Source of the DNA: Octopus sinensis
Lineage: Eukaryota
Assembly: GCF_006345805.1 (NCBI RefSeq)
Contig: NW_021833115.1
Span: 30,696-94,695, forward strand
Length of the DNA: 64,000 nt
Direction of reading: 5' to 3'
The position numbers were made by a program. Of the stretch, positions 12,926 to 13,517 are shown piece after piece. The stretch's first letter is position 1. Each line of letters begins with the position of its first letter.

Positions 12926-13517
12926 TAATTATAATAATAAATGCCCTGATGCAGTACCAGGCAGTGGCTCTCAAGGCTTCTGATCTTAACTGATTGGAAG
13001 TGTTATCATGTACATAGTTTTGTCTTGGTATATAAGATGGGCTACAGCAAATATTCTGCTCAATACCACAGATTTGCTTGTCAGTTGTTTGACCTTAACC
13101 AGTTGAGCATGTCCCTTGGTGGCTGACGATATGTGCATCTCTGATCACGAGCAGAAGTAGTGGGGGAGCATCATAGCCATGTGTTGAGAGGGATTCTTTG
13201 GGGTTTGAATAATTCACCTCTGGAAACATGGGTGGTTCTTTCAACATCCTTAAACAAACCTTATTCAGGGACCTTTTGAGCGCGATGGGCTACTCGACCT
13301 GAAGAAAATTCAAACTGAACCCCACCTGCAAGGTCATGCGCTGTTTATCTTGATATGAGATCACCATGTCGCGTACATATGGTTGTGATGCATGTGCCTG
13401 GTGTACCCTTATCAGACGGGTAGTCATGATGGGTATATTGGGCTTCGTATATTTTACTCCAGTGTCACTTTGATGGCATGAACTGCTCTCTCACTCAATA
13501 ATAATAATAATACTAAT

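What the first reader, a model, noticed from the sequence alone, without database searches (positions are those of the whole stretch)
12941..13496. Element A: 556-bp non-coding retroposon found almost only in (TAA)n
Seen: nine copies (10966, 12371, 12941, 17765, 29829, 38870, 39840, 40482, 63147) have a fixed 3' end followed by (AAT)n in eight of nine. Their 5' ends are variably truncated, and there is no ORF, clear tRNA head or TIR. Polarity matches the neighbouring R4/Dong copies. Established: Dong (R4 clade) targets TAA repeats. Inference: a non-autonomous passenger of an RLE-type LINE with no evident 3' homology to the four local families; its origin and promoter are unknown.
Basis: partly seen in the sequence, partly recalled or inferred. 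Interest (0 to 1): 0.7.

Follow-up and report, generated by a model that had tools for sequence, protein, structure and literature searches.

The report
Short non-coding retroposon nesting in TAA repeats
A 556-base non-coding mobile element sits nine times in this window, always inside TAA repeats and pointing the same way as nearby TAA-specific LINE fragments, so it is most likely a parasite of those LINEs, an expected kind of element rather than a new one.

Summary
BLAST and a profile search find exactly nine copies of Element A, 86.6-95.9% identical to the reference copy.

- **3' end:** it is common to all copies and runs into (AAT)n in 8 of 9.
- **5' ends:** they fall at consensus positions 1, 1, about 2, about 21, 31, 49, 197, 396 and 429.
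- **Flanks:** same-strand (TAA)n lies upstream in 8 of 9, against 5.5% per-strand TAA cover of the window (binomial P about 8e-10).
- **Content:** no ORF over 66 aa, no TIR, no tRNA, no Rfam match, no HDV-like fold at the 5' end, and three internal T4 runs.
- **Neighbours:** co-oriented LINE fragments carry RT, a CCHC knuckle and a restriction-like endonuclease, and end in the same (AAT)n. Their 3' UTRs show no homology to A.

Best reading (about 0.7): a non-autonomous retroposon copied in trans by TAA-specific Dong-like LINEs through target-primed reverse transcription. Three copies share one 5' terminus, which argues against a truncated LINE 3' UTR. No eukaryotic genome, Dfam or Repbase was searchable, so this is not excluded. 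Origin, promoter and partner LINE remain unknown. Interest is modest.

The parts
12941..13496 (+). Element A, full-length reference copy (consensus 1-556), (TAA)n upstream and (AAT)n downstream
   Evidence: K2P to consensus 0.020
17765..18320 (+). Element A, full-length copy with the same 5' junction as 12941
   Evidence: K2P 0.022
29829..30380 (+). Element A, essentially full-length copy (blast from position 4; small 5' indels), directly after the AT-rich satellite and followed by (AAT)n and LINE B
   Evidence: K2P 0.032
12371..12870 (+). Element A, older copy starting near consensus position 21, with internal deletions; in tandem with copy 12941 across 70 bp of (AAT)n
   Evidence: K2P 0.075, 25 indel columns
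39840..40363 (-). Element A copy, consensus 31-554
   Evidence: K2P 0.019
10966..11474 (+). Element A copy, consensus 49-556
   Evidence: K2P 0.024
63147..63500 (-). Element A copy, consensus 197-556; the one copy without an (AAT)n tail (only AGTAATATAT), at the edge of its TAA tract
   Evidence: K2P 0.075
40482..40642 (+). Element A copy, consensus 396-556; head-to-head with copy 39840-40363, 5' flank is (ATT)n
38869..38993 (-). Element A copy, consensus 429-553, directly downstream (in element orientation) of a LINE B 3' end and its tail
13396..13442 (+). Stable irregular hairpin in the 3' domain of A (19 pairs, 5-nt loop GGGUA), predicted in all nine copies; candidate protein-binding element (inferred)
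   Evidence: 98.2% of cells paired, no compensatory change
30546..33169 (+). LINE B: 5'-truncated RLE-type LINE (RT, CCHC knuckle, RPD...D motif), 3' UTR ending ...AAACATAG then (AAT)13; candidate class of enzyme supplier, not homologous to A
11533..12064 (+). LINE E: 3' fragment of a second RLE LINE family (66% aa identity to B over the RLE region) ending in (AAT)n, between two A copies
52850..53203 (-). LINE C: 3' fragment of a third RLE LINE family (58% aa identity to B); other copies at 12152-12292 +, 19554-19763 +, 63682-63999 -; all end ...AAAACTACTG/A then (AAT)n

Best explanation
Element A is a 556-nt non-coding, non-autonomous retroposon. Its RNA is copied into (TAA)n microsatellites by the reverse transcriptase and restriction-like endonuclease of TAA-specific, Dong-like LINEs, supplied in trans. 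The proposed steps are as follows. (1) An A transcript ending in (AAU)n is made, most likely by Pol II or by read-through from co-oriented upstream elements and not by Pol III. (2) The LINE endonuclease nicks the (TTA)n strand of a TAA tract. (3) The exposed 3' end pairs with the (AAU)n tail and primes reverse transcription from the fixed 3' end. (4) Incomplete copying gives the 5' truncations. (5) Each insertion leaves a new (AAT)n tail that can serve as the next target, so co-oriented nests build up. Shown here: copy number, anatomy, flanks, polarity, absence of coding capacity and of Pol III heads, and lack of homology to the local LINE 3' UTRs. Inferred: the enzyme source, tail pairing, the mode of transcription and any role of the 3' hairpin.
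For: - **Copies:** there are nine, with one 3' end and 5' ends at 1, 1, about 2, about 21, 31, 49, 197, 396 and 429.
- **Independent insertions:** sequences beyond the TAA tracts differ between copies. Divergence from the consensus is graded, with K2P 0.019-0.032 for five copies and 0.047-0.075 for four.
- **Target:** same-strand TAA lies on the 5' side in 8 of 9 copies and on the 3' side in 8 of 9, against about 5.5% background (P about 7.6e-10).
- **No coding or DNA-transposon features:** no ORF over 66 aa and no TIR.
- **Neighbouring LINEs:** three families (B, C, E) carry RVT_1, zf-RVT, a CCHC motif and an RPD...D motif. The RT of B is closest to R2 proteins among solved structures (E 1.6e-12). 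All end in (AAT)n and lie in the same orientation as A within each TAA tract.
- **Defined unit length:** 3 of 9 copies start at the same 5' terminus, two of them with an identical 24-nt junction. The LINE fragments are each truncated at a different point.
- **Not Pol III:** three T4 runs at positions 78, 334 and 512, no tRNA and no small-RNA head.
- **Literature:** Dong elements of a silkworm, a mosquito and a snail target TAA microsatellites (PMC3812793 passages). Most RLE LINEs are target-specific (PMC4640811 abstract and passages).
Against: - **No partner LINE:** no LINE in the window shares A's 3' end. nhmmer finds nothing beyond the nine copies. A word-7 blastn against the 3' regions of families B, C, D, E, F and G gives only short scattered matches; the best is E 0.017, an 18-nt antisense match away from the 3' end. 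For LINEs that recognise their own 3' UTR, a partner with the same 3' end would be expected.
- **No source of transcripts:** no promoter and no 5'-processing element was identified.
- **Narrow sample:** only 64 kb was examined and no genome-wide data were available, so longer copies may exist elsewhere.
- **Irregular flanks:** copy 40482 has opposite-strand (ATT)n on its 5' side and copy 63147 has no clean tail.
- **Hairpin unsupported by covariation:** no pair changes on both sides, and 387 of 500 shuffles reach the observed score.
Confidence: 0.7

Rival explanations
1. A is only the 3' terminal part (a long 3' UTR) of an autonomous or longer element that is not represented at full length in this window. 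The shared '5' end' would be a recurrent junction, for example microhomology of an internal TAA-like stretch of the cDNA with the (TAA)n target.
For: All LINE copies in the window are 5'-truncated, so full-length parents are generally missing here. The full-length 5' junction reads ...TAATAA|ATG, so pairing with the target repeat at that point is conceivable. Only nine copies were sampled.
Against: Three of 9 copies end within about 2 nt of the same position and three more within 50 nt of it. None of the 9 continues upstream into other unique or coding sequence. At 556 nt, A is 2.5 to 5 times as long as the 3' UTRs of local families B (about 220 nt), E (about 157 nt) and C (about 100 nt). The other truncation points show no such clustering.
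Confidence: 0.12
2. A is mobilised by an APE-type LINE that itself ends in (TAA)n, as recalled for I-clade elements. The TAA flanks would arise because the (UAA)n tail anneals to pre-existing TAA tails, not because an RLE enzyme is TAA-specific.
For: LINEs with (TAA)n tails exist: the I element ends in TAA repeats (PMC3747384 passage). An APE-type LINE fragment lies at 2162-3999 (Exo_endo_phos and zf-RVT). Upstream TAA tracts of three A copies continue from (CAA)n-type tails of other elements.
Against: The APE LINE fragment is not next to any TAA tract or A copy. The only coding elements that share A's target, tail and polarity are the RLE-type families B, C and E. A 5' flank of TAA in 8 of 9 copies is what target-specific integration gives, not what a tail alone gives.
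Confidence: 0.08
3. The copies spread at the DNA level, by segmental or tandem duplication and unequal exchange within unstable TAA arrays, and not by retroposition.
For: The window is full of tandem structures, including a satellite of about 950-bp period at 19745-29830. Copies 12371 and 12941 are in tandem. Twice, an A copy is followed by LINE B (29829.. and 40363..) and twice it is preceded by LINE C.
Against: Similarity between loci stops at the microsatellite. The paired LINE B copies are truncated at different points (30546 versus 39684), as are the A copies next to C (about 21 versus 197). The nine different 5' ends with one 3' end, on both strands, are the signature of target-primed reverse transcription. 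The tandem pair differs by more than 13%.
Confidence: 0.04

Closest known systems
Dong (R4-clade, TAA-specific non-LTR retrotransposon of Bombyx mori; DongAg, DongBg)
   Same: Both insert inside (TAA)n microsatellites in one orientation, end in the repeat and show 5' truncation. The target is from PMC3812793 passages.
   Different: Dong is autonomous, with RT and RLE. A is 556 nt with no ORF over 66 aa and no sequence similarity to the Dong-like fragments in the window.
R2 SIDEs (short internally deleted elements of Drosophila R2; Eickbush and Eickbush 2012, PMC3414825, abstract read)
   Same: Both are short, non-coding parasites of a site-specific RLE-type LINE. They insert at the LINE's own target and show LINE-like 5' junction variation.
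   Different: SIDEs are a LINE 5' HDV-like ribozyme fused to the LINE 3' end. A shows no HDV-like fold at its 5' end (plus Rfam) and no 3' homology to any LINE in the window. Its parent, if it has one, is unsampled.
Canonical SINE/LINE pairs with shared 3' tails (tRNA-, 5S-, 7SL- or snRNA-headed SINEs; reviews PMC3747384, PMC5786205, PMC4494074, passages read)
   Same: Both are short and non-autonomous, end in a simple repeat, depend on a LINE enzyme and leave 5'-truncated copies.
   Different: A has no Pol III-type head, carries three internal T4 runs and has no LINE-derived tail detected in the window.
Microsatellite-associated repeat families (for example the RTE-derived families flanking lepidopteran microsatellites, PMC2887409; search listing and start of abstract only)
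   Same: In both, a dispersed repeat makes many microsatellite loci share the same flanking sequence.
   Different: As recalled, in those cases the retroelement carries or seeds the microsatellite. Here the element sits inside pre-existing (TAA)n, with the repeat on both sides.

Membership tests
LINE-dependent retroposon (inserted by target-primed reverse transcription) | Common 3' end with variable 5' truncation among dispersed copies | tested here: met
   Nine copies share one 3' end; 5' ends fall at 1, 1, about 2, about 21, 31, 49, 197, 396 and 429.
LINE-dependent retroposon (inserted by target-primed reverse transcription) | 3' simple-repeat or A-rich tail; no TIR or LTR | tested here: met
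   (AAT)n follows 8 of 9 copies. There is no terminal inverted or direct repeat.
LINE-dependent retroposon (inserted by target-primed reverse transcription) | Independent insertions (different flanks, graded divergence) | tested here: met
   Flanks beyond the TAA tracts differ. K2P to consensus is 0.019-0.075. Empty sites were not available.
TAA-microsatellite-specific element (Dong-type target) | Insertions inside (TAA)n in one orientation relative to the repeat strand | tested here: met
   Same-strand TAA lies 5' of 8 of 9 copies and 3' of 8 of 9; background is about 5.5% per strand; P about 7.6e-10.
Dong / R4-clade LINE (autonomous) | Single ORF with RT followed by a CCHC motif and a restriction-like endonuclease | tested here: not met
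   A has no stop-free frame over 66 aa and no similarity to LINE B protein pieces: tblastn hits lie only in the B, C and E fragments and a further LINE at 34121-34965.
Dong / R4-clade LINE (applied to neighbouring families B, C, E) | RT phylogeny placing them in R4 rather than the HERO, NeSL or R2 clades | not testable with these tools
   No R4, HERO or NeSL reference sequences were available. The RT of B is nearest to R2 among solved structures. The atlas names only 'reverse transcriptase family protein'. HERO and NeSL also include microsatellite-specific families (PMC4640811).
Canonical SINE | 5' head derived from tRNA, 5S, 7SL or snRNA with an internal Pol III promoter | tested here: not met
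   ARAGORN finds 0 genes in the window. Rfam finds 0 at gathering score and only three chance-level hits at E <= 10 over the element. T4 runs lie at positions 78, 334 and 512.
Canonical SINE | 3' tail homologous to the 3' end of a partner LINE | tested here: inconclusive
   No homology to the 3' regions of local families B, C, D, E, F and G. LINEs elsewhere in the genome could not be searched.
SIDE (short internally deleted element of an RLE LINE) | HDV-like self-cleaving ribozyme at the 5' end | tested here: not met
   A loose nested-double-pseudoknot descriptor, written from recall, gave 0 hits at 25 start positions around the 5' end of each of the 3 full-length copies, although 102 of 200 shuffles gave a hit. 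No Rfam ribozyme family matched. No cleavage assay was possible.
SIDE (short internally deleted element of an RLE LINE) | 5' and 3' ends identical to those of a full-length parent LINE | not testable with these tools
   No full-length LINE lies in the window; all are 5'-truncated. The 3' ends of the local families do not match.

The most novel reading that the evidence does not exclude
TAA-specific RLE LINEs may choose their template loosely, needing little more than an (AAU)n 3' tail that pairs with the nicked (TTA)n target, perhaps together with a generic hairpin upstream of it. Families B and E share a UGGGU-loop hairpin 49-51 nt before the tail, and A has a GGGUA-loop hairpin 73-75 nt before it. 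A would then be a head-less, tail-defined retroposon with no sequence ancestry in its LINE. This would be a relaxed, L1/Alu-like relationship inside a LINE group thought to read its own 3' UTR strictly, and it would explain the many unrelated families stacked in the same TAA tracts.
Probability: 0.12. Interest if true: 0.6.

Novelty: new member of a known kind. Interest (0 to 1): 0.3.

Why it matters
If the reading is right, A is a plain case of a short parasite sharing the safe-haven target of site-specific LINEs.

- **Microsatellite markers:** many (TAA)n loci in this genome would share flanking sequence, a practical nuisance for marker design and assembly.
- **Growth of TAA tracts:** each insertion adds a new (AAT)n tail, so TAA tracts could grow into co-oriented nests of elements.
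- **Template choice:** the lack of any 3' homology to the local LINEs makes A a usable test of how strictly Dong-like enzymes choose their RNA template.

None of this changes current understanding unless relaxed template choice or a new 5' processing element is shown.

Tried and rejected
- **Known RNA families:** Rfam over the whole window at gathering score gave 0 matches. Over 12900-13530 at E <= 10 it gave only SNORD108, CrcZ and a histone 3' stem-loop at chance level. This rejects a known ribozyme or a small-RNA head.
- **tRNA head:** ARAGORN found 0 genes.
- **HDV-like ribozyme at the 5' end:** my own loose descriptor, built from recall, gave 0 hits at the 5' ends of the three full-length copies. 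A near hammerhead core (CUGAUGC instead of the recalled CUGAUGA) seen by eye at positions 6-12 was rejected for lack of the A and of any Rfam hit.
- **Dimer origin:** a 10-nt direct repeat at 13036 and 13284 prompted a half-against-half comparison, which found nothing beyond that 10-mer (E 0.56).
- **Homology to other TAA-specific families:** none was found.
- **Covariation in the 3' hairpin:** none. There were 0 compensatory pairs and 387 of 500 shuffles were as good, so the hairpin is only a lead.
- **Extra very short copies:** searches with the 3'- and 5'-junction motifs at up to 3 mismatches found only known copies (8 and 2 hits).
- **Genome contigs (bacteria and archaea):** a scan with a 3'-end pattern gave 0 matches, as expected for eukaryotic DNA.
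- **PDB sequence search with the CCHC/RLE piece of LINE B:** 0 hits at E <= 1.
- **Twin priming for the head-to-head pair at 39840-40642:** rejected by reasoning. The inverted copy has its own tail and overlaps the direct copy in consensus coordinates.
- **Literature:** searches did not turn up a paper describing a TAA-specific non-autonomous partner of Dong. This is not proof of absence. Repbase and Dfam, and the supplements of PMC13282606 (closed), may already hold this family.
- **Format errors:** searches failed on term format and were resent corrected.

Full report
**1. The observation**

The window is eukaryotic, repeat-rich DNA with no N and very many microsatellites.

- **Copies.** blastn with 12941-13496 finds nine copies:

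| Copy | Strand | Consensus span | Identity to 12941 |
|---|---|---|---|
| 10966-11474 | + | 49-556 | 95.9% |
| 12389-12870 (about 12371 in alignment A1) | + | about 21-556 | 86.6% |
| 12941-13496 | + | 1-556 | reference |
| 17765-18320 | + | 1-556 | 95.9% |
| 29831-30380 (about 29829) | + | about 2-556 | 94.6% |
| 38869-38993 | - | 429-553 | 94.4% |
| 39840-40363 | - | 31-554 | 95.3% |
| 40482-40642 | + | 396-556 | 93.8% |
| 63147-63500 | - | 197-556 | 90.0% |

- **No others.** A profile of the nine, run with nhmmer --max, recovers the same nine (E <= 1.4e-47). The next best hits have E 2.5-9.9. Motif searches for the two junctions find no additional short copies.
- **3' end.** It is ...ACTGCTCTCTCACTC in seven copies; two copies stop 2-3 nt earlier. 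(AAT)n follows in 8 of 9. The 63147 copy is followed by AGTAATATAT and then unique sequence.
- **5' flank.** Same-strand (TAA)n abuts the 5' end in 8 of 9 copies. Copy 40482 abuts (ATT)n, which is the upstream flank of the inverted copy 39840-40363.
- **Chance.** TAA-type repeat covers 8.7% of the + strand and 1.7% of the - strand. With p = 0.055, P(>= 8 of 9) is about 7.6e-10.

**2. Anatomy of the element**

- **Length.** Copies 12941 and 17765 share the identical junction TAATAA|ATGCCCTGATGCAGTACC, and 29829 starts within about 2 nt of it. So 556 nt behaves as a defined unit length.
- **Coding.** No stop-free frame inside the element exceeds 66 aa. Longer frames in the list run into the microsatellite flanks.
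- **Repeats.** There are no terminal inverted or direct repeats, and the two halves are unrelated.
- **Composition.** GC is 44.8%. The sense strand has T4 runs at 78, 334 and 512 and no AATAAA or ATTAAA.
- **Known RNA families.** ARAGORN finds no tRNA in the window. Rfam finds nothing at gathering score in the window, and only three chance-level hits at E <= 10 over the element.
- **HDV-like ribozyme.** A deliberately loose HDV-like descriptor, written from recall, finds nothing at the 5' ends of the three full-length copies. The same descriptor hits 102 of 200 shuffles.
- **Folding.** The whole RNA folds somewhat better than shuffles (z -2.88; 2 of 100 shuffles as good). Its most robust feature is a 19-pair irregular hairpin at 13396-13442 with loop GGGUA, predicted in all nine copies. 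The copies show no compensatory change there: 0 pairs changed on both sides, and 387 of 500 shuffles were as good. Conservation of the structure as such is therefore not shown.
- **Age.** Divergence from the majority consensus is K2P 0.019-0.032 for five copies and 0.047-0.075 for four. This indicates insertions spread over time, with an older variant (12371, 63147, 38870) that shares C at the one variable site near the 3' end.

**3. Surroundings**

Every TAA tract that holds an A copy also holds other elements in the same orientation, and each of them ends in (AAT)n.

- **RLE-type LINE fragments.** Three of these families are LINE 3' fragments.
  - Family B spans 30546-33169 +, with further copies at 39060-39684 - and 34898-35239 -. 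It has RVT_1 (E 3e-16 and 4e-8) and zf-RVT. By direct reading of the translation, it has a C-x2-C...H-x4-C knuckle and RPDIILKD...LLIDMTVP. I take these, from recalled knowledge of R2-type elements, to be the CCHC and PD-(D/E)xK-like endonuclease motifs.
  - The RT of B is closest to R2 proteins among solved structures (E 1.6e-12). The C-terminal piece has no PDB sequence match, and its nearest atlas clusters are unnamed or 'reverse transcriptase family' proteins of cnidarians and molluscs.
  - Family E (11533-12064 +) has 66% aa identity to B. Family C (12152-12292 +, 19554-19763 +, 52850-53203 -, 63682-63999 -) has 49-58%.
- **Family D.** This is a non-coding segment ending ...GAACGAAGAAAAAC|(TAA)n. 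It forms the unit of the satellite at 19745-29830.
- **No link to A.** The unique 3' ends of B, C, D and E are unrelated to each other and to A. All LINE copies are 5'-truncated, each at a different point, so no 5' UTR is available for comparison.

**4. Mechanism**

The combination seen here is the signature of target-primed reverse transcription: one 3' end, ragged 5' ends, a simple-repeat tail, no TIR, both strands used, and strict polarity relative to the repeat strand. The repeat on both sides shows target specificity rather than a tail alone.

The only coding elements in the window with the same target, tail and polarity are the RLE-type LINEs. I therefore infer that their protein nicks the (TTA)n strand and primes on the (AAU)n tail of A RNA. 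This step is inferred, not shown.

Pol III transcription is unlikely, because there is no Pol III head and there are three T4 runs. Pol II transcription or read-through from co-oriented neighbours is the default, and how a defined 5' end would then arise is unexplained.

The absence of a partner 3' end has two readings. Either the parent LINE lies outside the window, which would make A a SIDE- or SINE-like stringent partner, or recognition is relaxed and based on the tail. As a post-hoc lead only: B (3 of 3 copies) and E share a hairpin with loop UGGGU 49-51 nt before the tail, and A carries a GGGUA-loop hairpin 73-75 nt before it. Such GGGT-in-loop hairpins occur 43 times on the two strands of the window, which gives 0.044 expected per 130 nt.

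**5. Rivals**

- **(a) 3' part of a longer or autonomous element.** The clustering of 5' ends, the absence of any upstream extension and a length 2.5-5 times the local 3' UTRs argue against this. It is not excluded without the genome.
- **(b) An APE LINE with a (TAA)n tail as the driver.** The APE fragment at 2162-3999 has no link to TAA tracts.
- **(c) DNA-level duplication.** The different truncation points of neighbouring elements and flanks that differ beyond the repeat contradict this.

**6. Comparison with what is known**

- **Dong.** Dong elements of B. mori, A. gambiae and B. glabrata target TAA microsatellites (PMC3812793, passages).
- **RLE LINE clades.** RLE LINEs fall into the CRE, R2, R4, NeSL and HERO clades. 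Most are target-specific, some for microsatellites (PMC4640811, abstract and passages). The label 'R4/Dong' for the neighbours is therefore plausible but untested.
- **Non-autonomous parasites of RLE LINEs.** These are known as R2 SIDEs: a 5' ribozyme plus the LINE 3' end (PMC3414825, abstract). A works like one but fails the ribozyme test, and the parent-end test could not be done.
- **Canonical SINEs.** A is not one, because it has no Pol III head.
- **Possible source organism.** From recall of the 184-bp repeat unit, I suspect the window is cephalopod; no tool confirmed this. If so, Dong-R4 LINEs are abundant and recently active in Octopus vulgaris, with 5 families and 1129 recent insertions, alongside 893 'unclassified SINE' families (PMC13282606, passages). 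A may already sit unnamed in such a library. The supplements were closed.
- **Literature search.** Searches found no paper describing a TAA-specific non-autonomous partner of Dong.

**7. Not checked**

The bacterial and archaeal genome scan found nothing.

**8. Verdict**

This is a real, well-defined, TAA-specific non-coding retroposon family. It is most likely a non-autonomous passenger of Dong-like RLE LINEs (0.7). It is a new member of a known kind, and interest is modest (0.3). Interest would rise if relaxed template choice or a new 5' processing element were shown.

Noticed in passing
window 19745-29830 (also 10742-10869 +, about 14203-14330 -, 33275-33472 -): An AT-rich (GC about 18%) satellite of roughly ten units with a period of about 950-1000 bp, 80-87% alike. 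Each unit is a non-coding segment ending ...GAACGAAGAAAAAC, followed by several hundred bases of compound (TAA)n/(TGA)n/(CAA)n. It looks like a TAA-specific element plus its tail that was amplified in tandem. An Element A copy sits directly at its 3' edge.
   Followed up: partly
window 33117-33121, 39110-39114 (-), 34946-34950 (-), 12011-12015: The 3' UTRs of LINE families B and E, otherwise dissimilar there, share a GC-rich hairpin with the 5-nt loop UGGGU placed 49-51 nt before the (AAT)n tail. It is a candidate recognition element for the LINE protein.
   Followed up: partly
window 39840-40683: Two Element A copies lie head to head across 118 bp of (ATT)n. The + copy (40482-40642) therefore has opposite-strand repeat on its 5' side. 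How an (ATT)n|(AAT)n junction arose is unexplained; it does not fit simple twin priming.
   Followed up: partly
window 16109-17007, 18580-18996, 56415-56968, 4405-5341: Tandem arrays of a 184-185-bp unit (89-93% matches) occur in both orientations, with scattered single fragments at 13750-13892, 9514-9672 and 44189-44353. The unit contains GAGTTCAAATTCC, which resembles a tRNA B box (recalled), so it may be a SINE-derived satellite.
   Followed up: no
window 17346-17703: The segment between two (AAT)n tracts begins ...GGCGCATGGCTCAGTGATTAAAG, which resembles a tRNA A box (recalled consensus), and ends in (CAA)n then (AAT)n. It is probably a tRNA-headed SINE immediately upstream of Element A copy 17765. 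ARAGORN and Rfam did not call it.
   Followed up: no
window 9681-10110, 49688-50115, 51152-51578, 52120-52530, 59915-60316, 33627-33996 (-), 62444-62822 (-), 54841-55063 and fragments: Another dispersed repeat family of about 400-430 bp has at least ten copies (72-92% identity). It is not associated with TAA tracts and is unclassified.
   Followed up: no
window 2162-3999 and 34121-34965 (-): Two further LINE remnants. The first is an APE-type fragment (Exo_endo_phos E 6e-7, zf-RVT E 6e-8). The second is a fourth RLE-type family only 37-47% identical in protein to LINE B, lying right after a B tail.
   Followed up: no
window 7203-7969 and 57744-58640: A 410-bp unit is duplicated in tandem (94%). 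Separately, a cluster of about 96%-identical direct and inverted repeats spans about 0.9 kb. Both are unrelated to the finding.
   Followed up: no
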